Of a DNA stretch of 43,055 bases, positions 1,193 through 32,340 are shown piece after piece; the first letter of the stretch is position 1; each line of letters starts with the position of its first letter. Below the pieces are notes generated by a model that had not been told where the DNA came from, did no database searches, and saw only the letters and a program-made list of their open reading frames with translations. Location: the NCBI GenBank assembly GCA_001687465.1, contig LVLI01000206.1, positions 62,001 through 105,055 of the forward strand, given 5' to 3'. A program made the position numbers and the translations under genes. Origin of the DNA: Halocafeteria seosinensis (taxonomy: Eukaryota).

Positions 1193-1616
1193 TAAGGGAA
1201 AGTCCAATGTAATTTGCGGCGGCAACTAAAGAATGCATCATCAGGCTGAGCGAGCGCGGAGGTACGGGTACGGTGTGGTATACAGTTCCCAACAACTCTG
1301 ACGTCGCAAGTTAGGCTTCTTCCCTCTTTGAATTGTTGGGTCGAGGTTTTGTTGAGCCATATGCATTATCAACCAATACTGTACAGTGCATTTGTTGTCT
1401 CTTGTGTACTTCCAATTGTGTGCGTATGATTTGTGGCACAAATTGCCGCACACTGTGCCCAAAGTTGAAGTTGCTAAACTTCACACGGTGCAATGTTACA
1501 AGTATGTAGCATACAAGTATACTATGATATGATACACCTATGTCTCAATAGCAGGTTTCCTACAACGTTCTCGGCACACATTGTCGATACACGAGAAAGA
1601 TAGATAGAAAGGGTAC

Positions 1617-3575
1617 ATGAAGTGGAGAGGGAGTTGGATCCCGGTCATGATCCGGGGTCACAGATCGCTGCTGGGGCTATCGACTGCATTATGCTCTTAT
1701 TTTCATCTCCAGCAAACTCCTGTTCACTCGGAGGCTTATCCTCCGAATTTCCTAGGGGCTAGTCCTCACGCTACGCTCCATGAAATCGACACCGTGGAAT
1801 GGCGCATCGACAAGTGGTCGGCGTTCCATCCCCGTGCTGTCTGCACGGCTGCCATCCGTGGAACTGTGCAGGTTAAAGGCGATAGTCCCGTATTTGGTAA
1901 TGGCGTCTTAATCACTTCCCAAGGACACATACTGACGTGTGCACATCTTGTGCACACCAACAAGAACGTTTGTGTGGAATTCGCGGACAATCAGACGTAT
2001 CGGACTCGGCTCGTAGGAATTGACTGGGATGCTGACCTAGCCATCCTCCAAGTTGTGGGACAGCCAATTGGACGCTACTATGAATGGTTCAATGATCTCG
2101 CAGGTGTGGACTACCGTCGTGCCCAACAGGAGCAAAAATCAAGTGCAGAACAAGATGACCTTAAACAAAAAACCTCAAAACTCGCTGGTGGGAATCAGCT
2201 TGAAATTGGGCCAGCAGGAGTAGCTTTGCTCGATCATACCGTATCTAAGGCTGCGTTGGAGGCAACACATCGAGCCGAACGAAGGAGGTATCGAAGTGTC
2301 GCCGAGGTTAGCAGCTTTGTATACGACATCGAGTCTGATCGTGCAAGTGTACCTCAGAGTTTAGACCTGGCTCAGTGGCAGTACTGGTGGCGTTCCGTTC
2401 GAATTGGTGATCGTGTCTACCGTCTCTATCATAGGATCTTAGAGCGTAACTGGAGGCTGGGCGACGAAGATAGAATAGGTGGAGAACGCCTTCGAGCGGC
2501 GGCCTTCCGTGAAAGGCACGGGGAAAATGCAGGGCCTTCGGATGATGGGCGCCTCGAAGACACAGGGATCATCGCCAGGGTACGCTGGTTACTAAATAAA
2601 CTACGACGGTCTCATTCGTTTCTCCATCCGCTTGAATTGGCGACACACGAAGCGCTAAAGACTATTGATGGAAAACAGGACCCTTTTTTGGCTGCGAGGA
2701 GCTACTATCAAAGTGACAATGCTGACCAACAAGAACGCCTCATGACAGCGCGCATTCCTCTGTCATCTCGGCGTTCAATCCCACAAACCCTGTTTTGTGC
2801 TGGGATAAATCCTCCATCAATCGAGTATTCCACTGTAAACATTGTGCGCATGCTTCCAGATATAACTAATGCTGTTCCGCGTTGTAGGGATGCTATCTCG
2901 GAGTTACCTGGATGGAGGGGAAACGCGACACAGGGCTATTTTTTCGGCAGACGAATGGACGAGGCCCCTCTTTGGTCGGATGATTCTCATGACCCTTCTC
3001 TAGCAGTAATCCGGTTTGCACCATCAACCTTTATGTCCCGACCGGGATCACCTATACTGGATAGTGATGGCAATCTGGTAGGGCTTGTATTACGAGGTGA
3101 CACGAAGATACACGATGCTATTGATTTGACCGCTACAGATTCTGCTGCTCGAGTCAAAGTGATGCTTGAAGAGCAGGGTTCTAAGAAATGCTTGTCCAAA
3201 CCTGTATCGCCCTCAGATTTTGGATGCTTTTATCACTTCCGCCCTCATGAGCAAACGGCAGTAGTGGACGCAGTTTCTCGAGGTTCTGTGGCAGAAGCAA
3301 AAGGGATCCAACCGGGAGATAGAATTACTCACGTTGATGGAACTGCTGTTCGCTCATCGTACGAGTTGAGCAAGCGCCTAAAGGAATATCTCGTATCTAA
3401 GAGAAGGTGTAAATTACGCGTAGAACGTCTAAGTAACCCGGTTAATCCTCCATTGTGCTCGGTTGATTTTCATGCTATTGAACTGGCGCGGGACTCTGTT
3501 GATGCTGTTGTACAGCGGCGGGACGAGAGGCCCTCGTTCGATGCGGGCTATAAGAACAAGCTGGAACAATTGTAG
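1617..3575 (+). CDS. HtrA/DegP-like trypsin-fold protein with C-terminal PDZ; probably catalytically inactive
   Basis: GNGVLITSQGHILTCAH (His), DWDADLAIL (Asp), SRPGSPILDSDGNLVGL (aligns to GNSGGPL..dGevIGi), and PDZ VDAVSRGSVAEAKGIQPGDRITHVDG. The basic N-terminus resembles a mitochondrial presequence. Confidence 0.82.
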   Translation: MKWRGSWIPVMIRGHRSLLGLSTALCSYFHLQQTPVHSEAYPPNFLGASPHATLHEIDTVEWRIDKWSAFHPRAVCTAAIRGTVQVKGDSPVFGNGVLITSQGHILTCAHLVHTNKNVCVEFADNQTYRTRLVGIDWDADLAILQVVGQPIGRYYEWFNDLAGVDYRRAQQEQKSSAEQDDLKQKTSKLAGGNQLEIGPAGVALLDHTVSKAALEATHRAERRRYRSVAEVSSFVYDIESDRASVPQSLDLAQWQYWWRSVRIGDRVYRLYHRILERNWRLGDEDRIGGERLRAAAFRERHGENAGPSDDGRLEDTGIIARVRWLLNKLRRSHSFLHPLELATHEALKTIDGKQDPFLAARSYYQSDNADQQERLMTARIPLSSRRSIPQTLFCAGINPPSIEYSTVNIVRMLPDITNAVPRCRDAISELPGWRGNATQGYFFGRRMDEAPLWSDDSHDPSLAVIRFAPSTFMSRPGSPILDSDGNLVGLVLRGDTKIHDAIDLTATDSAARVKVMLEEQGSKKCLSKPVSPSDFGCFYHFRPHEQTAVVDAVSRGSVAEAKGIQPGDRITHVDGTAVRSSYELSKRLKEYLVSKRRCKLRVERLSNPVNPPLCSVDFHAIELARDSVDAVVQRRDERPSFDAGYKNKLEQL

Positions 3576-4642
3576 ATATATACGCTGTGGATTGAATGTC
3601 GGATCTTGCAGCGCTAGGACCACAGTTTTGGGTGGTACACCCCGTTATAGCACTGTAGTAGCTACCACCAACGTGTACAGATTGTGCACCAATTAGGTCT
3701 TCTTGGTTGCACGCGATTCCTATGCTCAGTAATGAAGCACTCTCTGAATAACATCAGCGTTCGGATCTAGTCGTAAGCACGCTTAGCACCGACTAAACTT
3801 CTACTCGGTTACTTCCAGGTTGACTCTACCTGCTGGCTGGGGGAAATATTCCGCCATCGACACTCCCGGTTCCTGGGCGGGGGCAGTGTCGGTGCCATCT
3901 GAGTCGATGGGTGACGCTTGCATCGGCTTCAGATGAGATTTCAGTTTTGTCTGAAGCGCCGAGCGAGACCGCTTCCTGCCGCTTGCGGCCTTGGACGGAA
4001 TCGACGACTCCCGTTTCTCTTTCTTTCCCTTGTTCGTTCCCTCATGTCCACAGCCGTAGTAGCTCCTCAAAACGAGTACTACCTGATAGTTCAGCATGAC
4101 GCTGCAAAGCAAAGGGACGGCACAACAATTCGAACAAACAAGCCGTCGTTCGCCAACTTGCTACCACCAACGTTGTCTCCTCTGACGCAATGCTAAAAGG
4201 AGTGGGTCTGTAGTTTCTCCTTATCAATCGGAAAGAGGCCTCGGGGAAGTATCCAAACAAAGAAGAGGGATGCTCCTGCTCTCTCTTGTTGAGCCTTCGA
4301 CCTCTTCGCTCATTGTGCCCAGGAGGTTTGTGTTGTGTTTACTCCCGTCCCAAACAAGCCATTTCAATAGGTTTTGCGTAGGGCAATTTGTCTCAAAACT
4401 CACGGCACTCCGTTGAGTGGCTTCACGTCCACAGATCGTCGTGATGTGAACCTGAAGGAGATACATAGGACGAAATACCACAAATTTGTTTTTGGGTGGG
4501 AAGCATACATGTACCGTGTGGTAGATCACCGCGTCTCTGTTGTGTGGTATTGAGGTTTGAAACCATGCCATTTCTGTGATCGTTCTTGGCTCACGTGGCA
4601 TCAAATGAATAAATGATGGTACCAATTACGTATTATTGAACG

Positions 4643-5908
4643 ATGATGTCGGCAGTCGAAGAACTTCTACGCTTGTACCTCATGTGGAATTCTGAAGTGT
4701 ATCGTTTTCCGCGACAGACCTTTCTTCCACAAACAGTAGTGTACTGGGAAACAGTGGCTGGCGTGACTTCTGGCTCCGAGGTGTCGTGGGTGGCGTGTTT
4801 ACCGTGGAGCACATGCACTCTTGTCGGCCATAGCGACGAGAATACGAGGAAAGACCTGCAGGTTCGGTATCCATTCTTCCGGGGGCATGGGAATATGAGA
4901 ACGATAGTCTTTACGGATACCATTTCGTGCTTCTCAAGGTTAACCTCATTGGACATCCAGTCCCTAGAGTGCATCAATCCTATCTCGGATCAAGATTTCT
5001 ACCACCTGTCAAACCTGCGTTGCCTTTTCATGAGCTGGGTTCCGAGCGAGAAAATTACGGATGGAGCGTTTGAGCACCTATCCAATTTGACAAAACTAGA
5101 TATGGATGGATGCAGGCAAACAACGATTTCAGATAGCGCTTTCAAACATTTGTCGGGGCTGGTCAATCTAAACATTCGGTATGATACTCAAACAACGCTC
5201 ACGAACGAAGCGTTTAAGCACCTACAGAAACTAACGTTTCTTGATATGAAGCAATGCCGTCAAAGTACGATAGGCAGTGACGCATTTAGTCACTTATCTA
5301 AGTTGGAAGGGTTAAATATATCAGGGTGTGATCAGACAACGCTCACGAGTCGTGCTTTCCAACACTTAGGGAATTTGACCTCGCTGGGTATGGCATCCTG
5401 CTTAGACTTAGTAGAACCCGACAGCACATTTCATTCGCTGCCGAAATTGTTGAGTCTCGATCTGAAGAGTATCAGGATCGTACAGCGAGTCAATGATGCC
5501 TTTGCAGGATTGTCAAAGCTGACGATGCTTGATTTGAGGTATGGCAGAACGTCAGGCCTATCGGATCGCGCCTTTCAACATTTGGCAACCTTAAAATGCC
5601 TTCTTATGAATGAGTGCAAGCAACCCTCAATTACTGACGAAGCATTTCGACATTTGTCGAACCTAACATACCTATCAATGGGAAGATGTGATCAACCAAC
5701 AATTACCAACGGCGCATTCCGGCACTTGGTAAACTTACGCAGATTGAATATGCAGATGTGCAATCAAGAAACGATAACGGGTGCAGCGTTTGCACCTTTG
5801 CTTAACTTAACATGGCTTTGCATTCAAGGATGCACTCAAAGCTCCATAGTGAATGAGTCGTTTCAACATTTGCCGTACCTCAAGCAGTCAAACATTTTGC
5901 GTTCGTAA
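4643..5908 (+). CDS. Intronless leucine-rich repeat protein, ~13 repeats of 24 aa
   Basis: Repeats of the type ITDGAFEHLSNLTKLDMDGCRQTT run across the C-terminal ~300 aa. The true start is uncertain. Confidence 0.85.
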   Translation: MMSAVEELLRLYLMWNSEVYRFPRQTFLPQTVVYWETVAGVTSGSEVSWVACLPWSTCTLVGHSDENTRKDLQVRYPFFRGHGNMRTIVFTDTISCFSRLTSLDIQSLECINPISDQDFYHLSNLRCLFMSWVPSEKITDGAFEHLSNLTKLDMDGCRQTTISDSAFKHLSGLVNLNIRYDTQTTLTNEAFKHLQKLTFLDMKQCRQSTIGSDAFSHLSKLEGLNISGCDQTTLTSRAFQHLGNLTSLGMASCLDLVEPDSTFHSLPKLLSLDLKSIRIVQRVNDAFAGLSKLTMLDLRYGRTSGLSDRAFQHLATLKCLLMNECKQPSITDEAFRHLSNLTYLSMGRCDQPTITNGAFRHLVNLRRLNMQMCNQETITGAAFAPLLNLTWLCIQGCTQSSIVNESFQHLPYLKQSNILRS

Positions 5909-10770: not shown

Positions 10771-11172
10771 ATCGGTCAAAGGTCGACCCAATGTAGGACA
10801 AATGAGAGGCATTTTAAATATTTATACTACTGTAAACTTCAATTTCGTGGACCATGCTGGATGGGTTTCTTGGGTACGGTAATTGATAGAATATGAGTAT
10901 ATCATTTGACGGTGGATAATGCTCATGTTATTAGTAAGAACCATAGTGGAATTTATGGAAACGTAGGGATAGTACAACTCATAGTTTCCTCGTGGTTTCT
11001 TAGTCGGGAAGGACGGTCCCAGGGCTACATTAACTTCTTCGCGTGTTTACGGCATGATTTAGATGCATTTAGACTGTGGCTCTCGTTTCGTAAGTGTGCA
11101 CGCTATCCCGCCGTCGATAGACCGAGGGGAAATGGGAGATCACGGCCGCGATACTGACTGAATTCCAACACC

Positions 11173-14100
11173 ATGGCCGAGGCATGCGGAGGCTCCTCGT
11201 CGCACAAGCCTTCTAAGCTATACAGGACGGATAGTCCCCAGGAGATGACCACCAGGCAGCGGACGAATAGCGTAATGGAGCAGGAGCAACAGCCGCATCG
11301 TTTTAGCGACGAGGAAAGGGAGCTCTTGGGTAAACTACACACTGCTTGGATGCGACTGCAACACATTGACAACGAAAAGGTGGGATCAGAGCTGAGCAAG
11401 AGCCGACAAAGTCAGTATGACGGAAAATCTGTGCCACGTTCATTTGATGACACTTTACTGGTTCGGGACGCCGAGTACTCGACGCCGTCAAGGAAGTCCC
11501 GCCATCGGAACTCAGCAAAGCGCGTTGCTCCCGGTGATAGTTACAGGTCCACCTCATTCGATTGTTGGGTGCGAGATGGAGAAACTAGCTTTGATATTGA
11601 TCTAGATAACGACACGGAAGAACAATCGAAATCCAGGGCAGAGTCAAAAGATACTCTCGAGTCGTCGTTTGAGTTCCAAGAGTTTTTGAGTAAGATGGAA
11701 ACAGCGAAGTATGCATTGAGCGAAGACTGCTTTGACGCCGTTGACGTGCGTCGATTACCTTTTACTGCGTGGCAAATAGTGGCAGTTTGTATTTTGGAGG
11801 GGTGGGCACCGATAGATTCTTGCTCAGCAGTTTTACAATCGTATGTCTCTGGAGATCCCCTTGTTCGTTTCGATGATTGGAGTTGGTGTGCAATGTTGCG
11901 CTCCATGGACGACTTGGGTGTTCTGTTGCTCCCTGATCTTTCGTTACATCTACATCGCCATATGTCGTCTCCGTCCGAGTTATTCTTGAAAAACCTTGAT
12001 ACTTTTCTTGTCGACGTTGTTGGGCCGTTTGTCGTGCGACATATTGTTGGGAGGGCGCTCTGTAATCAGTCTCTTCAAGCACTAGTTTGGAATTGGATGG
12101 GAGTATTGAGCTGGAAACAGCAGGAGTTGCTTGATTCGTCAACAGAAACTGCGTTCCACATGACGCTTAGATTGAGCCAAGAGCACACTGTGGGGTACGC
12201 GACTCGTTTCCTGTTGAACAGTATGTCCGATAGAACCGTTACCTCGTCGAGGAGCCCGAAAATAACCCCGCAAAACAGGATAGATGAACAAGTAGGAGAA
12301 AATGTTACCGAGGCTCAATTTATGAATGTTTTCCTGACGCTGCCGAAAGTGTACTTGCCTATTCGGAAGGCGATGTGGGACTCAGATAAAAAGCGGTTTT
12401 TGTATTCCATTAATGATGTTAATCGCACCCGAATCCAGCGACGATTGAACCAAATGGATAAACAGGACGGTATTTCTTATTCTACGAAGCACAACGACAC
12501 AGCGGCGTATCTAGAAACTTTATTACGTGTACACTACTTTCTCCGTCGTTGTACTGGAAGAAGGAAAACAGAAACAGATCAATTGCTTCATTTTGGAGCC
12601 TATGATTGGGTGGGATTTGACATGGACCATACGTTGATAGACTATAAGACAGATGCTACAAGTGCGGTCATATGGGAAGCATCACTCACACATCTCGTTC
12701 AGACAACTAGTAGAGATTGTCGAGCTGGTCGCGAAAAGCACGCATCGCTAAACACTGTTCTAAACTATTTGGTGCAAGAGTATCCTGGTCTTGAAAGCTT
12801 GGCCGCACCCCCGCATGGTGAGTCGCCTTCTACCTTCGACACTCCGCCTTCAATTTTCCAATTCACCGGAAGGCAGTATCCGCCCTGCTGGTTGGAGCTG
12901 GCAAAGCCAGGATATATCGTCGACGCCCTAGAGGGAAACATTATTGTTGTGGATGCGTGTTACTATGTTAGACGAGTTTTCCATGGCGGTAGGATAACCA
13001 ACGGTGAAGAAGCGATGAGGCAATACGTACACCACACTCACAAGCAACCAAAGGAGGCCGATTGTTTCCTGTGTTTCCTTGACTCCCTTAAACAAAGGTG
13101 CTGTGATAGACCGTCTCCAGACAGCGCTACTGGTCGGTATGCTCCCATCTTATCCTATTTTGACGCTCCAGTACTACCCCTATACGCGCTGCTGGTTTCT
13201 GCGTGTGATGATTTCGTTCGGCTGCAAAATGGTACCTTTCAGAGCGGTGTATTTACTCAGTTATGGGTGGCTGCCCAGAAGTCGACTCGCTTTTCATATA
13301 GTAGATTTAGTGTTAACGGATGGTCCAGTATTTTACAAAATCCGTCGAAATTTCTTCGGTTGGAGAAATGTAGACATACAAAGAGATGGATCCGGGGATT
13401 AAGACGAGGTGGATCTGGAGTGAAAGCTAGCCGATGTTTTCTGCTGACAAACTCGGATTGGAAACAAACGAATACTCTAATGTCGTTTGCATTCGGTGCT
13501 GATTGGCTGTCACTATTCGACTTGGTCATAGTAAACGCAAAGAAGTCAAAATTCCGTCGAAGTCTTGCTGCACACACTAACGATGATGGCAATCAGCTTG
13601 GTCGTGTGAAGCAAGATTCAGAGAAGGGATCAAATGTTTCATCTCACTCTGCGGAGAAGCAGAAAGGTTTCTCTCTGCTGAATCCTGAAACCGGGAAAGT
13701 CCAGGCGCTGGATGATAGTTGGCTCCAGCACGAAAGCAAGCAGCAGCAACTTGTGGAAGAGTTAGCGACGCGATGGGGCGCCTTACCTGTGAACTTACAG
13801 GCCTTGGGATCTGGAGTTGGTTCAGCGTTTGGGACTACCGCTGTATTAAGCGGAGGTGGCATTCGTCAGTTTCTAGCTACAATCGAGCATGTTACTCGCT
13901 CCGAACTCCCGACTGGAACTCGAATGGAGGCCAAGTTCTCTGTGCTATATATTGGTGACCATGTATATAATGACATCGTTGCCCCGGAGATTGAGGGGGT
14001 GACGTGGCATACCGTTGCAATCAGTCCGGAAATGAGTCTCACTACATTGCCGTGTAAAGCACTCGAAAAGATCGACCCGTCAGATGCATTTTCGCACCAA

Positions 14101-14772
14101 TGGGTTCCTGTGAGGACGAGTTTCGGGAAATTAAAGAGCGAACACCCACATGATATACTCCCCGTTTCCATAAATGGAGCTTTTACAGCATCTAACTGGG
14201 AAAGTAGGCAAACTCCCACAGACATATCCTGCAGCGAGTTCTGGCTCGATCGATTATCTTTAGACAGTTCGGTCCTTCGTGTACCGTCGGTTTGTTGGCT
14301 GATGGAGATTTTGAGGACTCGGAAAAGCTATTCCAGTATTGCCTTATTGGTTGGTAGGTCGCTTTTATCGACCAACACCCACGGCGTGTATAGTAGTCAG
14401 TTTCGTGCCTGCATCGATGAGGGCGACCTTGTAGCTACTGTTATCCGGCTGCAGCGTTTGGATGAAGCCGAAAGTGTGCAGAAGGAAAACTTTTTCTCGC
14501 GACTCCTGGAATATCTGGGTTCTTCTTCGAGCAAGAAACTGTTAAATCCCTTCTTTACACTCAATCGTGACAATGATGGAACAAGCAAAGCGTCTAAAAT
14601 GAAGCATTCGCTGGCGTTGATTCCTGGCAGGTCTACATCAGTGTCTTACAATTCAGTGGCTACATTAAAAATGGTGGCGCACGCTGAAGCCAAGAAGCAG
14701 GAGTTCTCCAATGAAATCGAGAATGCGAGTCCGGTTCGACAATCGAATCGTGAGTACTCGAAAGTCATTTAA
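11173..14772 (+). CDS. Large intronless HAD-superfamily 5'-nucleotidase (cN-II/NT5DC family) with a long N-terminal extension
   Basis: Motif I YDWVGFDMDHTLIDY, motif II FLLTNSDW, FDLVIVNAKK, and motif IV VLYIGDHVYNDI, within a 1199-aa ORF. Confidence 0.85.
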   Translation: MAEACGGSSSHKPSKLYRTDSPQEMTTRQRTNSVMEQEQQPHRFSDEERELLGKLHTAWMRLQHIDNEKVGSELSKSRQSQYDGKSVPRSFDDTLLVRDAEYSTPSRKSRHRNSAKRVAPGDSYRSTSFDCWVRDGETSFDIDLDNDTEEQSKSRAESKDTLESSFEFQEFLSKMETAKYALSEDCFDAVDVRRLPFTAWQIVAVCILEGWAPIDSCSAVLQSYVSGDPLVRFDDWSWCAMLRSMDDLGVLLLPDLSLHLHRHMSSPSELFLKNLDTFLVDVVGPFVVRHIVGRALCNQSLQALVWNWMGVLSWKQQELLDSSTETAFHMTLRLSQEHTVGYATRFLLNSMSDRTVTSSRSPKITPQNRIDEQVGENVTEAQFMNVFLTLPKVYLPIRKAMWDSDKKRFLYSINDVNRTRIQRRLNQMDKQDGISYSTKHNDTAAYLETLLRVHYFLRRCTGRRKTETDQLLHFGAYDWVGFDMDHTLIDYKTDATSAVIWEASLTHLVQTTSRDCRAGREKHASLNTVLNYLVQEYPGLESLAAPPHGESPSTFDTPPSIFQFTGRQYPPCWLELAKPGYIVDALEGNIIVVDACYYVRRVFHGGRITNGEEAMRQYVHHTHKQPKEADCFLCFLDSLKQRCCDRPSPDSATGRYAPILSYFDAPVLPLYALLVSACDDFVRLQNGTFQSGVFTQLWVAAQKSTRFSYSRFSVNGWSSILQNPSKFLRLEKCRHTKRWIRGLRRGGSGVKASRCFLLTNSDWKQTNTLMSFAFGADWLSLFDLVIVNAKKSKFRRSLAAHTNDDGNQLGRVKQDSEKGSNVSSHSAEKQKGFSLLNPETGKVQALDDSWLQHESKQQQLVEELATRWGALPVNLQALGSGVGSAFGTTAVLSGGGIRQFLATIEHVTRSELPTGTRMEAKFSVLYIGDHVYNDIVAPEIEGVTWHTVAISPEMSLTTLPCKALEKIDPSDAFSHQWVPVRTSFGKLKSEHPHDILPVSINGAFTASNWESRQTPTDISCSEFWLDRLSLDSSVLRVPSVCWLMEILRTRKSYSSIALLVGRSLLSTNTHGVYSSQFRACIDEGDLVATVIRLQRLDEAESVQKENFFSRLLEYLGSSSSKKLLNPFFTLNRDNDGTSKASKMKHSLALIPGRSTSVSYNSVATLKMVAHAEAKKQEFSNEIENASPVRQSNREYSKVI

Positions 14773-20468: not shown

Positions 20469-22936
20469 ATGGCTTCTTCATCGACGAATGTTCATCATGT
20501 GGAGACAGTTGTGCCAGAGGACAACGCTACGGCACAGAAAATGGCAGCTTCGTCCCCGGAAGCAGCTTCTGAACACACCGTTCAAGAGCATAATAGGGTG
20601 GCAACAGAAGCGCAGCAGGGGGACGACGATGCATCTACGACTAAATCAGGAGGCGATTCTGTGCTCTACCGTCTCTGCATCTCCAATATGGGTAATTTTG
20701 TGAAAGCAACGTCGTTCAGCAACTTTTTGACCAAGGAAAAAGTACCTCATTTTGGGGTTCAGAAAGTGGTAAAAAGTGTGGCTGGTTTCTTGTTATTCGA
20801 AACAGAAGAACAGATGAAAGAAGCAGAGTCGAAACTGGGACAAAAACAGACAAAGTACAAGGGCAAGCCACTTCGCGTCAGAAATGCCAATCCGCTCAAG
20901 GGATCCAAACCTCGTAAGCTACTCAATTTTGCCCAACAGCCCCATGGAGATAAGCGAATTGAACGAGCAGGAGATGATGGAACCGACCTGGAGATTGCTA
21001 CGGAAGGAAGCTCAATGCACGATCTATTGTCTTCGTGGTATCGCTGGGAATATCCCACCCAACTATCAAAGAAGCACGATATGATCCGCGAATTGATGGA
21101 AACGCTATATGCGCGTACCAAAGAAGCGGTACGTGTGTCACTGCCTACGTGTAAGGACTTCACTCGTTGTTTTACTAGTCTGGCTATGCCTCCAGACAAT
21201 AAACGCATTCATCAATCCAAGTACTTCCAAGAAAAGAGGAAGAAACTCCCAAGCAGTCCCTACTCCAGATGCTGATGTCGAGGCAAAGATGGAGAAAACG
21301 TGGATAGCCACGGAAACAGCAGGTATGTCTTCAATGCAAGGATCACGGGATTTTGTACTCGTCATTTGTAGTCCCTCTGCAGACACGTTCAAGGAGAAAC
21401 TCCGTAATATCCAAGGCTCCCCCGAGATTATTTACTATCGAAATAAGGCAAAATTTACAATAGGAAAGAATAGTGAAGACGAAATTTCAGTAGGGTTTCT
21501 AACGAAACCATTTCGGGATGGCAGACGAGTTGAGAACCCGATCGGTTGCCTCAATGTCTCCCGTGCCTCAGCATCTATTGCGCACAGGTTAGAGTCGTTC
21601 TTTAAAAGCTCTGCTTTCGAGCCGTACGATTGCCTCACACATACTGGAGTCTGGAGGGCTGTAACAGTGCGTGAAGGTTGCAAAACGGGGGAAATCATGA
21701 TAATTGTAGAAGCAACTCCTCCCGGCTCTGCTGTAGGTGACCACCAAGCTGCCGCAGCTCTTGGCAACGAACTCCCTGTTTGGACACGTGGCGTCAAGGT
21801 AGACGAAACTGCAGTGCACTCTGCTATATCAGTAGATAGCGAATTTGCAATTTTATCGAATATGGAAAGAGACGCAAGTCAGAAACGCACCTCAGATAAA
21901 CATCCTGCCCCAGTTTCGAACCTGGAGGAGCTGAAGCGACAACAGTCCTTGTACGAACAGGAGCTACAGCAGCTTGATGAGTTGTTATCTCAAGACTTTG
22001 AAGTTACCAAACATCCTCCGTTGCCTTCTGACTGCCCTACTAGCACTGTCACATCGATATCAGAGAAGGTCCCTGCTACTGTAAAGATTCATTCGGCTTT
22101 CTTACAAGAATACTCTGCAATTTCTGGTCCTGGTAAGTTCTGGTTTAACACTCTTTGTATGGTCCCTGCTAAGAATAGTTGTGGCTCCTTGGTGTTCTAC
22201 AGACGAAAATACTCCCTTCAAGCATTTACGGGGACAAATGCATTTTACTGAAGAAGTCAATGGTCTCCGCTTTGCCATTAGCCCTGGTGCCTTCTTCCAG
22301 ACGAATACTACCGCGACGGAAGTACTGTACGAACAGGTCGCCAATTACGTTAAATCAGATAGCCTTGATACTATCATGGATGTTTGCTGTGGCACGGGGT
22401 CGATTGGTTTGTGCGTGTCCAAGTTAATCGGTCGGAATGATTTAAGAATTGTTGGTGTTGAATTGTCTGCTTCTGCGGTGGATAACGCGCGTTACAACGC
22501 TGAAATCAACAATATGTCTGAAGATAACGTCATATTTAAGGATGCCAAAGCAGAAGACGTGATGCCCGAGATAATCAAGCATGCTATTGATACTCACGAG
22601 ACTCCAGACAGCAAGGAGACAAAGGAAAATGGATTCTTAAGTAACCAGCAGGTAGTTGCAATATTGGATCCTCCTCGTGCAGGCGTTCATAAAAATGTAA
22701 TCCAGACTCTGCGAGCTTGTCATGGTCTCAACCGTATCGTTTACGTGTCATGCAATCCTACGGGCTCGTTTGTCAGAGACTGTGCCCTTCTTTGCAGCCC
22801 CCATGGAGGGCCTCGCAGCAAGGTCAAGGGAGCGCCCTTTAGGTTGACAAGTGCTACTCCAGTGGACTTATTTCCACAGACATCGCACATCGAAATGGTT
22901 GCTTTATTCGAGCGACACTTAGATGACATATCGTAA
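20469..22936 (+). CDS. TRMT2A: tRNA (uracil-54 C5)-methyltransferase with N-terminal RRM-like domain, multi-exon
   Basis: YRNKAKFTIG, AFFQTN, DVCCGTG, LDPPRAG, YVSCNP (catalytic Cys) and VDLFPQTSHIE. An alternative upstream in-frame ATG lies at 20343. Confidence 0.9.
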
Positions 22937-23066
22937 CTTTCAACAAGCTGAAATGGTATAATTCGAATCCGGGTCACCCGTTTTGACTAACTGAGGGTAC
23001 TTTAAACAACGACGTTGTCAGTGGCTCCAGGCAATATTCTGGGGATAGAATTACAGTGCGTACAGG

Positions 23067-25821
23067 CTAGGAGGGATCTTGAGACTGTATGTCGAGTAAC
23101 GTCTTTTGGGAGTAGAATCTATTTATCGTCTTCCTTTCCACTTCCCGGTGTACTTCTTCCCAAGAGGTCCATGTGGATTTGCTACCATCGACGTCCAAGT
23201 CCGCTTCAAAGTAGAATAATCCATGACATGGAGTAAATGATATTCTTACGTTAGACGTACCGCCTTCCAAAAACCTGTACGTTAACGTTATCGCTCCAGC
23301 AACGGAGCTACTCAATCGGTAAAAAAAATTACCTGGGGGAAATTCTTCCTCCTTAGTGTTGCAACCATATATCAACGGACGATGACCTGCTTGCCACCAC
23401 TCCGAGACACCGAACTTTATTAACCATAGCACTGGCATAAGAACCTCCACACAATACATGTATAACTTGAAAGTACCCTCCGGTGTTAGGTAGGGCTTTG
23501 TCCAAACTTTATCTACAAGGCTTTGACGCATATCCTCCAATCTCGGCTGTGTTAGCTCCTGAACGTAGTCAGACGCAAACTCGATGATTGCCGAGGTAAT
23601 CGAGTCTTCCTCCCAAGGTATCGGCTGATCTCGGTTATATCCAGTTAGTAAAGCCGCATGCGAAATTCTCTCCACTGCGTTGCTCGCCTCCAGGTATACC
23701 TCTTCTGCATTTTAAGAGCCAAAAATTCAATTGAGTAGTTCGAGTGGAACCAATTTCGCAAACGTACCATCACATAAGTTAGTGTCGTTTTTAGCATGCC
23801 AGCGGATTTCTTCGTTATTGAAATCGTACCCACACTTGGCAAGGCGTTCGCAACAACGAACCGCATTGGCCGGGCGCCCATGCAAACAAGAGGGAAGATC
23901 GGACTCCTCAAGCCGACGCACTATCTGCACAAGGACAAAGGGTTCAATAATTTCACCAACACAAGAAAACAATACCGACATTTTACAGTACTTCGTTTTG
24001 ATTTTCCCCTATGACCCTTGAAAGACGCTGTTTCAAGATAAGGGTGATCGCTTGTTCATCCAACTCCTTAATGGGTGGGAAAAACTGCGGGAAGCCAACG
24101 GAATCTGAGGCGCAGTTTTTACAGCCGTCGAATTAATTTGGTTACTAACCTCGATGCCTGTGTTACTGACATCATAAGCTGAATAATCGGCCACTGATAC
24201 CGTTACTATAGCATGTAGTATCGCGAAGCGCCGACATAACCGGGGAATATCGTTGATAGTATCCGCAATGCGTGGGTTGTACCTCCACTGGGTGCAAGCA
24301 GTATAAATATGCACCAGAAGCTGTAGTGGCTAGGAAACGCAAGCAGGTGTAATTCGTTGCATTCAAGGGATCGGAATCGAGAAGACACGAACCAGGGAGT
24401 TAGTTGTGGTCTTTTTTTGCAGCATTCCATCCATTTCCGCCCCCTGTAAGGGATATTACAGCAGTGTAACACCATAGCATCCAAGGACAGCTCAATAATC
24501 CCACTCACTGGTTCGACCGTTAGAGTTATGACGTTAGGGAAAGGGGTAAGTTGGTTCCGACTGTCGCTTCTTGCCAATATGAACCCAGTGACAGACCTTG
24601 CAATGGTAGACTTCCCCAGGCCTCGTCTTCCCCACAATACGAGTACCCCGGGACCTCGCCCAGCAATACCTTTCTGGGCTTTTCTACATATCTTCTGGTA
24701 TACACTCTGAATGCAACCATGACGACCAAGGATCCATTTGTGAGGTTGTTCATCCCACTCCAGCGGTTGTACTGAATTTTTCCAATTTGGGGACGACTCC
24801 GAGGCTTTCTTGGCAGGAAACGCTTGTAGATGCTGTTGTTCTGCTCAGCAAGTTAAATAAGGACGTTCAATTACATTTGGAAATCACGAGAATCAAGTGT
24901 GCAACCTGTACTTACTTATTTTATCCTTCGATTCCGGGACAAGGCGAAAAGGTTGTTCAGCATCAGCTGGAGTGCTCTTCTGGTGCGCCGTCGCTACGTC
25001 CACTCCTTTCTGCGCATAACAAAAACAAAGAGCCCAACAGAAAGTAAATCACCTCGAAATTGAAGAGCTTGGGTTTCGAACAATAACCCTTACCAGTAGA
25101 TTCTCATACAGCTTGGCCACATAAGCATTCGTTCGTTGCTGCGATAACCAAAATATTGTTTAGGACAACAATCTAGGTCACCGGTTAGCCCAGGGAACGT
25201 ACCCCTCCATCACCTCGATCATTCTCCTTGGGAACCGTGAGAACTATTTTTGCTGCGTCGTGTTTCCAATGATAGGAACGTCGGGCTTGGGTATCCAGTA
25301 GAGATACTTGACTTACCACCTGCTTGCATCAAAACTTTGGCTGCTATATCTGTTCCATACCCTGAAACAATGATGATCGAAGGTGGTGAATGAGTTTTTA
25401 AAATCCTTTCGATTTCATTCGCCGTCACCGTCTCCTCACATCCTAGGTCTCTGTCATGATCTTCCAGTGCAATTCCATACGTGTCACCAGCTGGTAACTG
25501 TCGTCCTCGCCCCACGTAGTGCAGAATGTCGATCCCATGGTCCAGGACCTTGTCAAATGTCTCACGGGTTGCGATAGCATCGTACCACGTGATGGCATAC
25601 ATGGACACTTGTTCGATTATGTAAGAGCGCTCTCTGGCGACATCGACCCGAGTTTGTCGGTGATCCAACTGCTCGTCGTCCGGACTGTACAGGGGATCCG
25701 CGTAGATATACGCGATATTGAGTCGACGTGGCGGGTGTTTGACTACCTGAGGGCCTTTGGGAGGATGGTTTGACTTCTTCCTGTGGCCCTTCTTCTTCCC
25801 TTTACTAGCACCAGCACCCAT
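23067..25821 (-). CDS. Paralog A: pseudo-CHAT (inactive caspase-like) + STAND/NB-ARC-like NTPase + STAT-like linker-SH2, predicted N-myristoylated, ~711 aa
   Basis: Manual GT-AG model with exons 25821-25317, 25252-25203, 25138-25094, 25009-24916, 24840-24509, 24443-24393, 24320-24150, 24084-23992, 23924-23768 and 23704-23067, giving one open frame of 2136 nt. Motifs: MGAGASK, AYIYADPL, DILHYVGRG, IIVSGYGT, ILGR...VLWGRRGLGKST, LHGRP, WWQAG..LIYG..GNFFYRLSSSVAGAITLTY. Confidence 0.8.
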
Positions 25822-26100
25822 TATACAGCACCGAGTTTGTGCCGCGTCGAGATGGCAGTCGAAGACGGAGGAACCTACACTATAATGCACCTCTACAGAA
25901 TCTTGCTGGTACCGGTAGCACCACACAATGTGTCCATTCACCCTAACAAGTCCGCGGATGACGTCGTACGTATATGCAATGGAGCAATTGCGGTCCGAGC
26001 TTCACAAACAAGGCTATATTACGCTAGTCTGCAGACTGCAACCAATTTACACAAGTTGTGTGTGGTACAACAACTTTTGTGTACGGTAGTAGCAGTGCTC

Positions 26101-26300
26101 CTACCGGAAGGCGAGTAGGCTACAGGTTACGCTACGCCGTGTGTGGGGTGAACTCTACCCAAAACCGCTCCAACATCTGTCATCAGCTTGCGATGCTGTA
26201 GTTCCTCCCCGCCTCCCGCTGGGGAACTCCCTGCTGGGAACCCCTGGACTCCCTTGTTCCCCAGAGGAGAGCCTGGTGGTTTCCTAAAGCAGAGAACGCA
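26101..26300 (-). repeat. Inverted, rearranged relative of the retroelement 3' end at 27160-27305 (SINE-like non-autonomous candidate)
   Basis: Shares blocks TGGGGAACAAGGGAG, TCGCAAGCTGATGAC, AGATGTTGGAGCGGTT and ACGGCGTAGCGTA(A/G)CCTGTAGCCT in the same order with the + strand element. Contains extra GC-rich stems such as CTGGGGAAC/GTTCCCCAG. Confidence 0.7.
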
Positions 26301-26899
26301 GTTAGACTTCATAATTGCCAATCTGCTGAATATCCAATGAGAAAGCACACAACAAAATACATGTATTGAAACGGCAGTCCAGACCATGAACTTCGAGTGA
26401 CCTCTTCCGTCACCAGTCACAGCAGAGGGATATCATAGAGGGATTTAGTCCTTCGGAAGTAATATATGCTGTTATCAATAATATCACTATACCTGTGATA
26501 TTTCACTGGTATTGGTAACTGCGAACTTCGTAACCCCGTTGAAGCCCGCGGTGATAATTGTCCGGAAATATCTACCGCCTGGGCCCTGGAGTTACCCCTG
26601 GGGGGAAACTTTTGAAATTCGGTTTTGTCTGGTCTTGTGACACGTACGAAATCAACATGTATAGAAGCTAAGAGGAACACCCACTTGGTCTATGCTGCGA
26701 CAACATGTGCGGCTGTTTCGCCCTAGACTCGATGCTCAAGCAGGACGGCACTACTGCGTCATCCTGATCCCTGAAAATTCCGTTGGCTCTTTTTTCCTGG
26801 GGAAGTCTTTCGGTCTTACGTAGATCTCCCTGGAGCCAGTTGCATGTACGCAGGAGCTGCACAATAAGCGCCGTTTGCCGCTTTGGGTTGTAATGCTGG

Positions 26900-27330
26900 A
26901 GGTTACACGACAAGGATCAGCTCGCGCTTTTGAACTGGAGTGGAGCGGAGCGTTTGGAGGGTACTATTTCATATCAAGCTTGTACAGTAGTGGCAACTGC
27001 ACGTGCCGATTTACTCTTGCAGCTGCTATTGGTCCCCACACCATCCTCCGGAAGCGCTCCCCACATGAAAATTATCCCGTTCGTGATAGAGGCGACGGGC
27101 GGTTTCGGGGAAGACGCGATCAAGTCCCTCAAGAGAATTGCCAAGAAAGCACCGCCTTTGTTGGGGAACAAGGGAGATGCGGAACTTTCGCAAGCTGATG
27201 ACGGCCAAACTGCCTATCATGTTGATGCACCACAACGTGAAGATGTTGGAGCGGTTACCCGTTATACGGCGTAGCGTAGCCTGTAGCCTGTTTGTCTTCC
27301 GGTTGTCACTTTGTCAAAGCACGCCGGGTC
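26900..27330 (+). mobile_element. Decayed 3' end of a non-LTR retrotransposon with a restriction-like endonuclease (CRE/R2-type)
   Basis: IIPFVIEATGGFGEDAIKSLKRIAKK, then after a frameshift near 27175 RNFRKLMTAKLPIMLMHHNVKML. This matches the C-terminal RLE pattern PfvvEtxGxxg...xxxlsxxlxrxNaxxl. No intact RT is seen and the 5' boundary is unclear. Confidence 0.7.
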
Positions 27331-28020
27331 ACTGAAGTCCACCTGCACGGTTGCAAATGCAACAAGAGGAGTCAGTGTGTTTGAAAGATAACACAATTTC
27401 AAAAGTGTTCATTGATATTTGAGTTGTCGATGCTCGATTACACAAACGTTACATAAACAAACGTGTGTCTGAGGCAGTGGGTCAGAATTGTCGACTCATC
27501 AACAGAACGGGAGAGCACATAATCGATGCATCCCATTAGCCCAAGTTAGTACTAACGACAGAATACTTTCATGGCGGAAGTATTTGGTTGTACACATATC
27601 TCGTGCATATAGACGCTATTTCCAAATAGTCCGCCAGCTGCATGTTACATTTTGCATCCCTTCGCCGGTCGACCTCACGGAGGAATTCGGCAGGATCGAT
27701 GGATCGTCCAGTCAGACGAGGAAAAACGTAATGGAAAAGCTTGCCAAAAAACTGAAAGACAAAGGTTTGGGAGACACTCTGGCGGATTCGTTGGCATCAT
27801 GTGCAGTTTAGACGGAACCTGACGGAGGCATCCATTTTAGGCCGGGTCGGGGCCAGTTTTAGTTGGCTCACCCAGCCAGGTCAGAATCGACTTCCCTCTC
27901 TCTTACCCATACTTGCCTGAAAGCCGGGGATCCACACAGTTAAATAATGTTCCTGTGTTAACACTGAGAGCAGAGAGTATGCACAGCCTGACGGTCAACA
28001 TAGCAATTCCATTTTGATAG

Positions 28021-28151
28021 AACCCACAAAGGAAGTGTCTCCTGCAGGAAACTGACGACAAATCAGTGAACCAATTAACGGAAAAGCGTTGACTAAGAGA
28101 CGTTTAAATTGTGTTAAATTATTAAATTTATTAAAATTCGCGGGCATTATA
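28021..28151 (+). repeat. Dispersed repeat, copy 1 (inverted copy at 41451-41560)
   Basis: 28047-28103 matches the reverse complement of 41480-41536 at 47/57 nt without gaps. Both copies then share AAATTTATTAAAA(A)TTCGCGGG. Confidence 0.75.
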
Positions 28152-29316
28152 GCGTCTTGTACGTCACCAACTTACAACATCATTGGTTAGAAGACGTCGA
28201 ATGACGTCTCCAGCTGCGTTCAATTTTGCTTTGGCCTCTTTTGTCACAGTATCTTGCCGTATTTCATGTTGGCCGATGTATCTGGACGGCTTAAAACTAA
28301 GACCAACAAGTTGTTGTGTTGATACACCTTTCCCAAAGCATCCACAACCGGACTTCCATCCCCATTACCATCAGGGAATTGGGGACGCATCACAATCAGC
28401 CTACGTGAGGCTCATTTATTACAAGGCCGCATATAACAAGGCGTGTCTGTAGCATCAGTAAAGGCGTCCGCACTATAATGACAGACTCTGCCAAGAAAAT
28501 AATCAGTAAGTAATGTGCTGTTGTCGTTTACAACAGTAAACATGTGAGAACTGTATTGAACCTAGTGGGAGTCGGAAGTCGAATTATTGGCTCAATCAAT
28601 GGCTCTTCTACAACACCAATCGATTCGTGGACGCAGAAGGTGTCTCTGCTGGATGCTTGAAAGTGACAGCTAGCATACAACCAGTGTGTGCTGGATAGTG
28701 CTGGTGCGAATCGGATTCAGCATCCTCACGTTGCACCAATGATGGCCACCGTCAGTCTCCGCAGTTTTTTCATCTTGTTTCATCTCCCAAATTCGCCAAA
28801 AAGAACCCTGTGCGTTCCTGGTTATCCCGTTCAGGAGGTGGATTGCGTCTCAAAACGAGCCACGCCCCTATTTCGTTCGTTTCGTTTTATCTGACTCCGT
28901 CCGTTTTGCGGGTGTACAGGCACCTCTCTCTGGCATCTGACCCGTAAGAACGCACTCACCACTTCCACGACTGCCTTTTGGTTCCTGCATATCATTTTGG
29001 CGGCATAAGCTTTGCGATAAGTTGACGGTGGATACGGGCCGATAGCAACAAAGGCGCGTTGTGAGCGAAAACGACTATCCTATAGACTGCTTGCCCCCTC
29101 CAACCTAGCGGCACCGGTAAAACAACCGATCCTCCAGAAGTCGTAAACAGGCTGGGTATGTTGCCGTGAATTCAGTAAAGGGTCCCTAGGTGTGTACCAC
29201 GGCGTCATATATCCGCTATCTGACATACAATGCACGATCCTAGCCGTGGAAGAACGTTTGCCTACAGTGTAAACTCTACTAAGGTGAACGAAGCGTAGCC
29301 CTTCCCGTCGACGCGA

Positions 29317-31982
29317 TTATCTTACCGTAGGATGGAAGACAATATCGCTTTCCCCCAAAGTGCGCGAGATATGCTCGTGAATGTCTTCCCATACCCGGAA
29401 CGGCGTGTTATCAATGTAGAACCTAAACTCAAAATTTTCTCGCTTTTGAATGATCCTCATATTCTCAATGCTCCAAGTGCCCGGGTCTTTCCAGGAGACC
29501 GTAACCCCTCGTGGATCACTGCCGCTCAGCCGATACAAAAATTCACCCTTCCCCAAAATCTCCCCTGGCCTACAGGCCCTGCCATGGATGAAAGGAACCG
29601 CTTCGTCTACGTCCCACCAGTCCTTTATTCCATAGGTCAACAGCCACAAGCATGGCATCAGAATGTGCCCACAGTATGAATATATGTTTAGTATCCCGTC
29701 AGTCACATAGTTAGACAGTTGCGTCGTCAATCCTTCTAAACCATCTAAACGATTTTGTCTCAGGTGCTGCAAGTACAGCTTGATAAACTCTAAGACAGCC
29801 GTTTCAGCCAGCTGAGGCTCCCATGTTGCCTTATACACATCACCATGAAACTGTTCTTGACGTTCTCTCGAGAGGTAATTCGCAATGTATCGGGAAGCTT
29901 CCGTTCGCTGATGAAGAATCTCATCTGTATTTAGCAGGGGTTACTACTTGGAATTGCAAGTAGCACTATACGAATACCATTCGTCGCACCTTCGCAATCC
30001 TCTCGTCTCCAAGCAACCTCCGTTGCAGACAGCCGGTCGGCTTCACCCGAGTGGCACAACTCCTTAGCAATATCGGTAATTACCCTAGCGTTTCCTAACA
30101 TTCCTTTGAACGCTTCATGCTGCTGCAACTGTTGCAGCAACTGCACAAGCAAACGTATCGCACGGGATGAGTAATATTCCAGTTCAATCCAGTACGCAGC
30201 AAAAGTACGTACATGCTCGTGTTGGGGACCCAAGCACTGGGCTAAGAGCTGCGTGGATGCGTCCTCGTTCAAGGGTTCCACCCGCACACACTGTGACGAG
30301 AAATAAATCAATTACGATTGGAATATTAAGCGTTATCTACTCCCTACGAACCTTAGCTTCACTGCAATCGGAGGACTTGATATAGGCAGATACACAAAGT
30401 ACCGCAGTACAATGAAATGACTTCGATAAGACTTGCAAACATTCGCTATAGAGGTTGACCAAATCACTAGTAAAACAAAGTTTGGTCGTTTCTAGATGCA
30501 CTTTGATAGTAAACTGCACCAAAGAGACTGCGTGTACACTTCCATAACTACGATGGGAGTCTGGGAGCGATTCCACTCACTAATGTATGGGGAGGCAAGG
30601 CCTCGTACGCGGGATCTGCACGGTTTCGTTTGCATGCAGCTGCAATTTTATCGGATAATGTATCTTCCTGTAAGGTTAAACGCGTACTGCTAATGCAAGT
30701 ATTTGAACTCCAGCTTTTATTGCTTACCTCATTCGCATTGATGCTGACAGAGAGAATATTTCGAAACCGATTGAGGGCATTGAACGCAGATCCATCTCTA
30801 GACCTTCTTAAGTTCACATAGCGATATAGGGAGTCGCATAGAGTGCGTTTTCCCAATCCACTTTGCCCATGTAGGACGATGCACCGTGAAGCGGACGCAT
30901 CGAAGCCATCATGACACACTGACTGATACAGTTCCTGTAGTAGCTTATCTCTGCCATATATAGATCGATGTGGTTGGTCAGGACATTCGTCGCAAATTCC
31001 ATCAAATTGGAGCCGTATTTTGTGATTACTACGGGATATGGATGTGTCCGCTGCATTTTTTTTTTGGTTGTCGTCGTAGATGCACGTTCTCGTTCTGCAC
31101 AGGAAAGATGATGCCATACTTACTGTCCTCAGGTTCACTACTAGGCGATAACAAAGTGAATGTGCTTTGGTGACGTGGGGAGCAAGCGATCCCTTGTGCT
31201 CGCTCAAACGCTTTACGGACTGTCTCTCCCCTCTGCAACCGTAATGACAACTTCAAGAGTATTTGATTTAGAGGTACCTGGACGGGATAACTGACGTACG
31301 AGTAGCCTTTCATAGAAGCATTTGGCGAAGGAAATCGCGGATATCTGCATTGTACCGTAGTATGTAAACGTGACTTTGCGTGCTTGAACTGGGTATGGGT
31401 AATGCATCTCACATCTTCCACCGACGAATCCTGCGGAACCGATACCACATACGGAACTGCAAGTAAGATAAGTGAATCTAACGACGATGGCAAGATCAAA
31501 ACAGAAGAGCACGTACTTCCTGCATCTGTGAATACTTGTGCGACAGCCTCACTGTGACATGCGCTCACGAGCACCAGTTTGGGGCGGTGGGTATCGTGCA
31601 GCAAGTTCCGCAGTTCCTCCGTATTGACTATTTTCTCCACACCTAATTGTTGCTGCTGCTTAACACTATCGTCCTCAACTACGCCCTGTTCGAACGAGAT
31701 ACCCTGAGGCGTGCCATGGCCTGAATAATGCAGGATGTCAATGCCTTTAGAGAGCAAGATCTTCATGTTCTCCAGGGTGGCGATGGCTTCCAGCCAACGC
31801 ACATCAATGGTCTCTGCGCGTTCTTTCCTTCGGACTGGTGCAAATGGGCCTACGGGAGGTGATATCTGCTGCAATTGTTGTCTAATCTTGCGCGATTCCA
31901 GGTGGAAATCAATGCGCTGGACGGGAGATCCATCTTCATGCAGAATGGGGTCCGCGTAGAGGTAGCCAATAGTAATCATCAT
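29317..31982 (-). CDS. Paralog B: CHAT caspase-like protease (His/Cys intact) + STAND/NB-ARC-like NTPase + STAT-like linker-SH2, ~694 aa
   Basis: Manual GT-AG model with exons 31982-31517, 31456-31413, 31344-31300, 31232-31124, 31050-30728, 30667-30581, 30513-30352, 30290-30213, 30140-29978 and 29924-29317, giving one open frame of 2085 nt. Motifs: GYLYADPI, DILHYSGHG, LVLVSACHS, AISFAKCFYERLLRGETVRKAFERA, IYGR...VLHGQSGLGKRT, VEPLNEDASTQLL, WWD...FIHG...GEFLYRLSGSDPRGVTVSW. Confidence 0.83.
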
Positions 31983-32340
31983 GAAAACTCACAGATACAG
32001 GCACAGCCGGAGCAAAAACGACACAACAAGACACAATTAGTAAAGTACGTGGCTTCGAGTGGTCGGATTATATATTTTGTGAAGGTCAAGGCAGCAATAC
32101 CCGCGGCGGGGTAACCCGCCTCGATTCGAAGTACACACGGGTACAACCGACCGTACCCAGCCGCTGTTGTGTTGTCTGTGGGGTGTTCCAGAACGAATAT
32201 AAAAGGCATCTGGACGTGCGCCACATTGACAAACGCACTTCAGCACATATTCTTTTTTGTACTGAAGGAGTTCAACGAAAACTCAAAAGATGTCAATTCG
32301 TTAGTAGTCAACGCTGTGTCCACTCACAGATCTGAATACT

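What the first reader, a model, noticed from the sequence alone, without database searches (positions are those of the whole stretch)
23067..31982. CHAT-STAND-SH2: NLR-like caspase proteins with an SH2 domain in the sensor position
Seen: two tandem genes each encode an N-terminal CHAT domain, a P-loop module with the NB-ARC-style order (xxGR, Walker A, a 'PL..E.A..LL' segment, GxP-like motif) and a C-terminal SH2. They share 10 exons with identical intron phases (1,0,0,1,0,0,0,0,1) despite strong sequence divergence. Known: STAND immune proteins have the order effector-NTPase-sensor, with TPR, LRR, WD40 or ANK repeats as sensor, and CHAT proteases act as death effectors (for example on gasdermins in bacteria). 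Inference: here a phosphotyrosine reader replaces the repeat sensor, coupling tyrosine-kinase signalling to oligomerisation-driven proteolysis. I do not know of a characterised protein with this architecture.
Basis: partly seen in the sequence, partly recalled or inferred. Interest (0 to 1): 0.92.

Follow-up and report, generated by a model that had tools for sequence, protein, structure and literature searches.

The report
Live-dead pair of SH2-bearing caspase-like proteins
Two neighbouring, spliced and transcribed genes of a eukaryote (likely a protist) each join a caspase-like protease domain, a worn-down NLR-type nucleotide-binding domain and a likely phosphotyrosine-reading SH2 domain; one keeps the cutting residues while the other has lost them and carries a predicted membrane anchor, so they would likely act as a phosphorylation-gated protease and its inactive partner.

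Summary
Gene A (31982-29317, 690 aa) and gene B (25821-23067, 711 aa) are minus-strand, 10-exon paralogues with identical intron phases. Spliced contigs show 15 of 18 junctions directly, and each gene is one transcript. CHAT is solid (Pfam above cut-off; Z 20.9 to SAVED-CHAT). The SH2 is divergent: it is supported through relatives and an invariant βB arginine, not by a Pfam cut-off or a fold match. Eight metagenome proteins share the layout (one is a fragment lacking CHAT), with intact enzyme motifs. B's protease dyad is dead (His→Arg, Cys→Tyr) and B starts with a myristoylation-type, basic N-terminus. Both P-loop domains lack the Walker B aspartate, A has GKR for GKS/T, and little room is left for winged-helix or superhelical domains, so a canonical NLR ATP switch is unlikely here. 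Best reading: SH2-driven clustering activates protease A, with B as membrane-anchored regulator. Binding, activity and substrate are untested. My literature searches found no description of the architecture. This scan noted it before in other genomes (two unchecked notes).

The parts
29317..31982 (-). Gene A, 690 aa (= P0001). Exons 31982-31517, 31456-31413, 31344-31300, 31232-31124, 31050-30728, 30667-30581, 30513-30352, 30290-30213, 30140-29990, 29924-29317
31125..31982 (-). Gene A CHAT domain (aa 1 to about 215) with intact dyad His89 (31718-31716) and Cys142 (31559-31557)
   Evidence: Pfam PF12770 39.7 bits; Z 20.9, rmsd 3.0, 192 aligned to 8tl0; dyad mapped through
30842..30868 (-). Gene A Walker A, GQSGLGKRT (Arg where Ser/Thr is canonical); no Walker B Asp downstream
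29320..29922 (-). Gene A last exon: helical STAT-linker-like segment and divergent SH2 (about aa 591-686; βB Arg620 at 29532-29530)
23067..25821 (-). Gene B, 711 aa. Exons 25821-25317, 25252-25203, 25138-25094, 25009-24916, 24840-24509, 24443-24393, 24320-24150, 24084-23992, 23924-23768, 23704-23067
25774..25821 (-). Gene B N-terminus, MGxxxS followed by a lysine-rich patch: predicted N-myristoylation plus polybasic membrane anchor, absent from A
   Evidence: Sequence; motif meaning recalled; first in-frame ATG of the transcribed region
25357..25509 (-). Gene B pseudo-CHAT active site: Arg105 for the catalytic His, Tyr155 for the catalytic Cys
24605..24631 (-). Gene B Walker A, GRRGLGKST (canonical); no Walker B Asp downstream
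23070..23702 (-). Gene B last exon: helical segment and divergent SH2 (βB Arg629 at 23318-23316); 68% identical to P0004, 42% to P0005
24321..24392 (-). Gene B intron 6 (72 nt, in-frame stop): spliced in the X2 contig by length arithmetic, retained in the X3 and X4 contigs (one sample)
   Evidence: tables 2, 5 and 8; translation

Best explanation
Genes A and B encode diverged CHAT / P-loop / SH2-like paralogues, and A is likely a caspase-like protease switched on when its SH2 domain clusters it on tyrosine-phosphorylated proteins, while B, which lacks the catalytic residues and carries a predicted lipid anchor, would act as its membrane-bound inactive partner. Shown: the gene structures, the transcripts, the domain order, A's intact and B's dead dyad, the loss of the Walker B aspartate in both. 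Inferred: (1) the SH2 binds a phosphorylated ligand through Arg620/Arg629; (2) the STAND-derived domain no longer cycles ATP and serves as an assembly surface; (3) clustering activates A's CHAT domain, as filament assembly does for SAVED-CHAT; (4) B recruits or tunes A at a membrane, as cFLIP does for caspase-8 (recalled). The substrate is unknown; no gasdermin-like gene was identified among the neighbouring ORFs scanned.
For: A's CHAT model matches SAVED-CHAT best (Z 20.9; Foldseek E 6e-11). A's His89/Cys142 align with the SAVED-CHAT dyad whose mutation abolishes activity. That paper shows ligand-induced oligomerisation activating a CHAT domain (passages). The βB arginine, central to pTyr binding, is invariant in 10 of 10 aligned proteins and in all 13 examined. 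A profile of the window-type last exons scores 8 of 8 SH2-bearing relatives above all 1100 shuffled decoys, at their SH2. 7 of its 8 PDB hits are proteins I recognise by name as SH2 proteins. B is kept intact, is transcribed, and its last exon has a 68% identical relative (P0004), while A's closest is P0003 at 36%, so both lineages persist elsewhere. The losses are complementary: A keeps the dyad, B keeps the canonical Walker A and has the anchor motif.
Against: The SH2 is below Pfam's cut-off in A and has no hit in B. The best PDB E-value for the profile is 0.66. B's C-terminal part scored no better than 115 of 1005 decoys against the relatives' profile. The language-model search of A 489-690 listed no SH2 cluster. 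The αA region is shorter than in the relatives and its basic residue is not conserved in P0003-P0005. The model's pLDDT is about 40-58 over the SH2 and under 50 over most of the P-loop domain. Tandem position is what duplication gives anyway and does not show a complex. No tyrosine kinase could be looked for, as no genome is held. Some SH2 domains bind phosphoserine (Spt6).
Confidence: 0.42

Rival explanations
1. A and B work separately. A is a protease that its SH2 carries to phosphorylated substrates without any higher-order assembly; B is a stand-alone membrane adaptor.
For: Only 28% identity, separate transcripts (no cover in X2-X4 at 27414-28115). The P-loop region is eroded in both (12-26% A/B identity). 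No contig was found showing the pair conserved side by side.
Against: The closest solved CHAT needs oligomerisation for activity. B keeps the whole CHAT fold region at 30% identity to A despite losing catalysis, which fits a retained contact role.
Confidence: 0.27
2. One reading: each protein is a canonical NLR-like switch that exchanges ADP for ATP when the SH2 is engaged, forms a wheel and activates its CHAT domain.
For: Motif order matches STAND proteins. The family profile hits plant NLR NB-ARC domains over about 200 positions (E 4e-4 to 8e-3). The 7 full-length relatives keep dyad, GK[T/S] and FD[EQ]AE, so this may hold better for them.
Against: Walker B Asp absent in A and B; A has GKR; B has no dyad. 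No NB-ARC or NACHT Pfam score reaches its cut-off. The space after GxP is too short for WH plus SH domains if the helical segment is the STAT-type linker.
Confidence: 0.15
3. The SH2-like domain has drifted to another ligand (phosphoserine, a phospholipid or an unmodified peptide), so the proteins are not tied to tyrosine kinases.
For: Weak profile scores, altered αA; precedent in Spt6.
Against: Invariant YRLS / LR[LV]S with the βB arginine across both clades; relatives match STAT SH2 domains best.
Confidence: 0.12
4. B is a decaying duplicate with no function.
For: Dead dyad; intron 6 retained, with a stop codon, in the contigs of one of two samples.
Against: 711-codon open frame across 10 exons at 28% identity to A, spliced transcripts, and a 68% identical relative of its last exon.
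Confidence: 0.04

Closest known systems
CHAT-bearing NLR-like proteins of fungi and bacteria (CHAT + NACHT/NB-ARC + TPR/WD/ANK; PMC10197012, passages; P0017)
   Same: N-terminal CHAT, central STAND-type P-loop domain, C-terminal recognition module; caspase built into the receptor.
   Different: SH2 module instead of repeats; Walker B lost and WH/SH apparently missing; one copy is a pseudo-protease; no gasdermin-like gene identified among the neighbouring ORFs scanned.
SAVED-CHAT (PDB 8tl0; bioRxiv 10.1101/2023.06.23.546230, abstract and passages)
   Same: Closest solved CHAT by sequence profile and by fold; same His-Cys dyad; sensor-fused protease.
   Different: Senses cyclic oligoadenylate through SAVED, has no P-loop domain, is bacterial.
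STAT proteins (Dictyostelium STATa 1uur, STAT1/2/3)
   Same: Relatives match the STATa segment before the SH2 (E 0.0057) and STAT2 SH2 is the top SH2 hit.
   Different: No DNA-binding domain; A ends a few residues after the motif that closes the SH2, and B's tail beyond it has no tyrosine, so STAT-type reciprocal dimers are unlikely.
Caspase-8 / cFLIP (recalled, not tested here)
   Same: Active protease beside a catalytically dead paralogue from a neighbouring duplication.
   Different: Death-fold recruitment rather than SH2; C14 caspase rather than CHAT; a complex is shown there, only inferred here.

Membership tests
CHAT protease (PF12770) | Profile score above the curated cut-off and caspase-like fold | tested here: met
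   A 39.7 bits against 24; Z 20.9, rmsd 3.0, 192 aligned to 8tl0. B's exon 1 alone scores E 0.23; it is placed by homology to A.
CHAT protease (PF12770), gene A | His-Cys catalytic dyad | tested here: met
   His89 and Cys142 align with SAVED-CHAT H375/C422
CHAT protease (PF12770), gene B | His-Cys catalytic dyad | tested here: not met
   Arg105 and Tyr155
STAND NTPase | N-terminal-helix motif (xxGR), strand-4 motif and a helical GxP bundle after the P-loop domain | tested here: met
   Collinear with the relatives in the profile alignment; B has GRP, P0005 GNP, A only GNA. Definition from PMC2323615 passages.
STAND NTPase | Walker A GxxxxGK[T/S] | tested here: inconclusive
   Met in B (GKS), not in A (GKR)
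STAND NTPase | Walker B hhhhD[D/E] | tested here: not met
   No Asp at the aligned strand in A or B; FD[EQ]AE in 8 of 8 relatives
NLR / Apaf-1 type | Winged-helix and superhelical domains after GxP | tested here: inconclusive
   No such Pfam family at E up to 1 in P0001 or P0002, but P0017 shows none either at 0.001. Length argues against them; the model is low-confidence there.
NLR / Apaf-1 type | C-terminal repeat sensor (LRR, WD40, TPR, ANK) | tested here: not met
   No repeat family on P0001 or on the B exons scanned
SH2 domain | Conserved arginine on strand βB | tested here: met
   Arg620 and Arg629; invariant
SH2 domain | Pfam PF00017 cut-off | tested here: not met
   A 14.9 against 21 bits, B no hit; P0002 reaches 26.4; 7 of 8 relatives hit at E up to 0.01
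SH2 domain | Helix / antiparallel sheet / helix fold | tested here: inconclusive
   Model gives H594-605, four strands 617-659, H670-677 at pLDDT about 40-58; fold searches were filled by the CHAT domain
SH2 domain | Binds phosphotyrosine peptides | not testable with these tools
   Needs a binding assay
STAT | DNA-binding domain and tail tyrosine after the SH2 | tested here: not met

The most novel reading that the evidence does not exclude
A protist has a paired, membrane-anchored 'phospho-inflammasome': myristoylated pseudo-protease B docks on tyrosine-phosphorylated proteins (its own receptors' or those of an invading microbe) and nucleates active protease A through their STAND-derived domains. 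This would be a sensor/executor NLR-like pair that reads phosphotyrosine instead of a pathogen pattern, from an old CHAT-STAND-SH2 family that couples tyrosine-kinase signalling to caspase-like cell death outside animals.
Probability: 0.25. Interest if true: 0.88.

Novelty: new variant of a known kind. Interest (0 to 1): 0.68.

Why it matters
NLR-like receptors are described with repeat sensors. An SH2 in that place would wire phosphotyrosine signalling directly to a caspase-like protease, in organisms where neither pathway is understood. The family is not a one-off: seven full-length relatives keep dyad and Walker motifs and are ready test cases. The pair here adds a natural live/dead, cytosolic/membrane contrast in two proteins of about 700 residues, which allows a direct test of whether pseudo-caspase regulation and paired receptors arose again in protists.

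Tried and rejected
Single-sequence fold of P0001: pLDDT 36.6, not used. Complex prediction of two copies of A 1-216: no answer, score 0.00, alignment not used; no evidence either way. A-B binding could not be modelled, as full-length B has no protein id. Two metagenome scans for related loci found nothing (56 and 516 pattern matches, 0 confirmed), so conservation of the tandem pair and of B's dead dyad in relatives is untested. A's last exon alone against PDB sequences gave one unrelated hit, E 0.46. P0006 and P0007 (2 of the 6 hits) are long repeat proteins matching about 30-60 residues and were dropped as unrelated. The run search listed no holder on record as RNA; the spliced joints are the evidence instead. 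A tree of 12 CHAT plus P-loop segments joins A with B (100/99) but leaves SH2-bearing against SH2-less proteins unresolved (61/56, long branches), so a single origin of the architecture is neither shown nor rejected. STAT-type reciprocal dimerisation was rejected for lack of a tail tyrosine. A read-through fusion of A and B was rejected: separate contigs in X2-X4. No whole genome is held. Earlier-finding look-ups by sequence, by place and by words for the pair were empty.
Full report
Observation. The window is eukaryotic, with short spliceosomal introns. Between a tRNA methyltransferase gene and Spb1 lie two minus-strand genes. Gene A (31982-29317) gives 690 aa and gene B (25821-23067) 711 aa, each from 10 exons with GT-AG introns and phases 1,0,0,1,0,0,0,0,1. 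They are 28% identical over 622 columns. Contigs of runs X2-X4 skip the predicted introns at 15 displayed joints (8 in B, 7 in A), while X1 skips none (3 further joints were not displayed). These are 2 samples of 1 study. Gene A's model is identical to the transcript-derived P0001. For B, contig lengths in X2 fit all nine introns, whereas the X3 and X4 contigs keep intron 6, which holds a stop. A and B lie on separate contigs in all three spliced runs, so each protein's domains are on one transcript and the two genes are not fused.

CHAT. P0001 scores 39.7 bits on PF12770 (cut-off 24). A model built on 11 sequences is confident only here and matches SAVED-CHAT best. Mapping the published dyad H375/C422 (passages) through the alignment gives His89 and Cys142 in A. 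B has Arg105 and Tyr155 there, so B is a pseudo-protease. B also begins MGxxxS with a lysine-rich patch, at the first in-frame ATG of its transcribed region. I recall this as the N-myristoylation plus polybasic membrane anchor of Src-type proteins; none of the other proteins listed starts this way.

P-loop domain. Pfam hits are to STAND-type families but all under their cut-offs (AAA_16 25.3 against 32.6). Aligned to the relatives, A and B show xxGR, Walker A, the strand-4 position, 'PL.E.A' and a GxP-like motif in order. B's Walker A is canonical, A's ends GKR. Neither has the Walker B aspartate that all 8 relatives have and that PMC2323615 calls crucial for Mg2+ binding and hydrolysis (passages). 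About 70 residues separate GxP from the helical segment that, in P0002, matches Dictyostelium STATa just before its SH2. Apaf-1 needs 85 + 136 residues for its WH and SH domains. I infer a shortened, probably hydrolysis-dead STAND-derived domain. Inactive STANDs are known in bacterial systems (PMC8195603 section 19).

SH2. Direct scores are weak: 14.9 bits for A's last exon, nothing for B, no SH2 cluster in the language-model atlas. Indirect support is consistent. A search of 1.84 billion representatives gave 6 hits, of which P0003-P0005 are true relatives of the last exon (P0018 added). Their profile hits 8 PDB sequences at E up to 10, 7 of them SH2 proteins by name, best E 0.66. It aligns to the SH2 of the P0002 family (E 5e-5, probability 67.5) and scores 8 of 8 of those proteins above 1100 decoys. 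In the reverse direction 3 of 5 window-type sequences beat all 1005 decoys; P0004 and B did not. The βB arginine, which binds the phosphate (PMC3507883 section 6), is invariant. I put about 0.9 on the fold and 0.7 on a phosphorylated ligand.

Family. P0001's only other hit among the 7994 candidates scored was P0002, which also carries CHAT and SH2. P0002 retrieved 11 proteins including itself. Eight form a clade of 49-58% identity; 6 show CHAT, P-loop and SH2 by Pfam, P0009 lacks only the SH2 hit and P0014 lacks the N-terminal part. All 7 full-length ones keep dyad, GK[T/S] and Walker B. The other three (P0015-P0017) have CHAT and P-loop without SH2. A tree does not settle whether the architecture arose once.

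Mechanism. The most economical reading is proximity activation: the SH2 concentrates A on phosphorylated proteins, the worn P-loop domain supplies contacts, and clustered CHAT domains become active, as for SAVED-CHAT. B keeps all three domains, loses catalysis and gains an anchor, which fits a membrane scaffold or brake. Confidence 0.42; independent action is the main rival (0.27), then a canonical ATP switch (0.15). Nothing here shows that A and B bind, what A cuts, or that the outcome is cell death. No gasdermin-like family was found among the neighbouring ORFs scanned (not every ORF was scanned).

Literature. Searches of the open library found 0 papers for 'CHAT domain' + 'SH2' + 'STAND', 0 for four of CHAT / SH2 domain / caspase-like / NB-ARC / stramenopile and 0 for 'CHAT domain' + 'SH2'. 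One search gave 1 paper, whose SH2 passages concern TRADD-N proteins. One search gave 6, of which I read passages of PMC10197012 on fungal CHAT-NLRs with repeat sensors; the others I saw as listings only. Searches gave nothing on this architecture in their listings (passages of PMC3942036 read; PMC3507883 passages and section 6). Subscription journals, InterPro and supplementary tables were not searched and could list the architecture. Two earlier notes of this scan report CHAT-STAND-SH2 proteins in other genomes; they are not independent evidence.

Verdict. A real, expressed, apparently undescribed variant of CHAT-bearing NLR-like proteins, here as a live/dead pair with an eroded nucleotide switch. 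It works like a sensor-fused caspase but fails the membership tests for canonical NLRs. Interest 0.68.

Noticed in passing
window 26100-26260 and 26894-27303: Multi-copy repeats between genes A and B (summed depth up to about 4800 in X1; inverted 54-nt arms at 26103-26156 and 27250-27303). The ORF 26894-27274 (+) resembles the endonuclease tail of a non-LTR retroelement (recalled motif; no Pfam hit).
   Followed up: partly
window 24321-24392: Retention of gene B intron 6 in the contigs of one sample would give a protein cut after the pseudo-CHAT and half the P-loop domain; it may be regulated or only an assembly choice.
   Followed up: partly
window 25937 and 32209-32248 (- strand): Out-of-frame upstream ATGs in the transcribed leaders: one of 14 codons before B, three (2, 46, 76 codons) before A.
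   Followed up: no
window 4640-5908 (+): Single-exon leucine-rich-repeat ORF with no NTPase or effector domain detected, about 17 kb from the pair.
   Followed up: no
window 1608-3575 (+): Trypsin-like protease plus PDZ (HtrA-like) with long insertions.
   Followed up: no
window 11158-14772 (+): 1204-codon ORF with a 5'-nucleotidase domain after about 580 residues without a Pfam match.
   Followed up: no
window 22085-23067: The contigs carrying gene B run on past its stop across the convergent tRNA methyltransferase gene, suggesting overlapping 3' ends.
   Followed up: no
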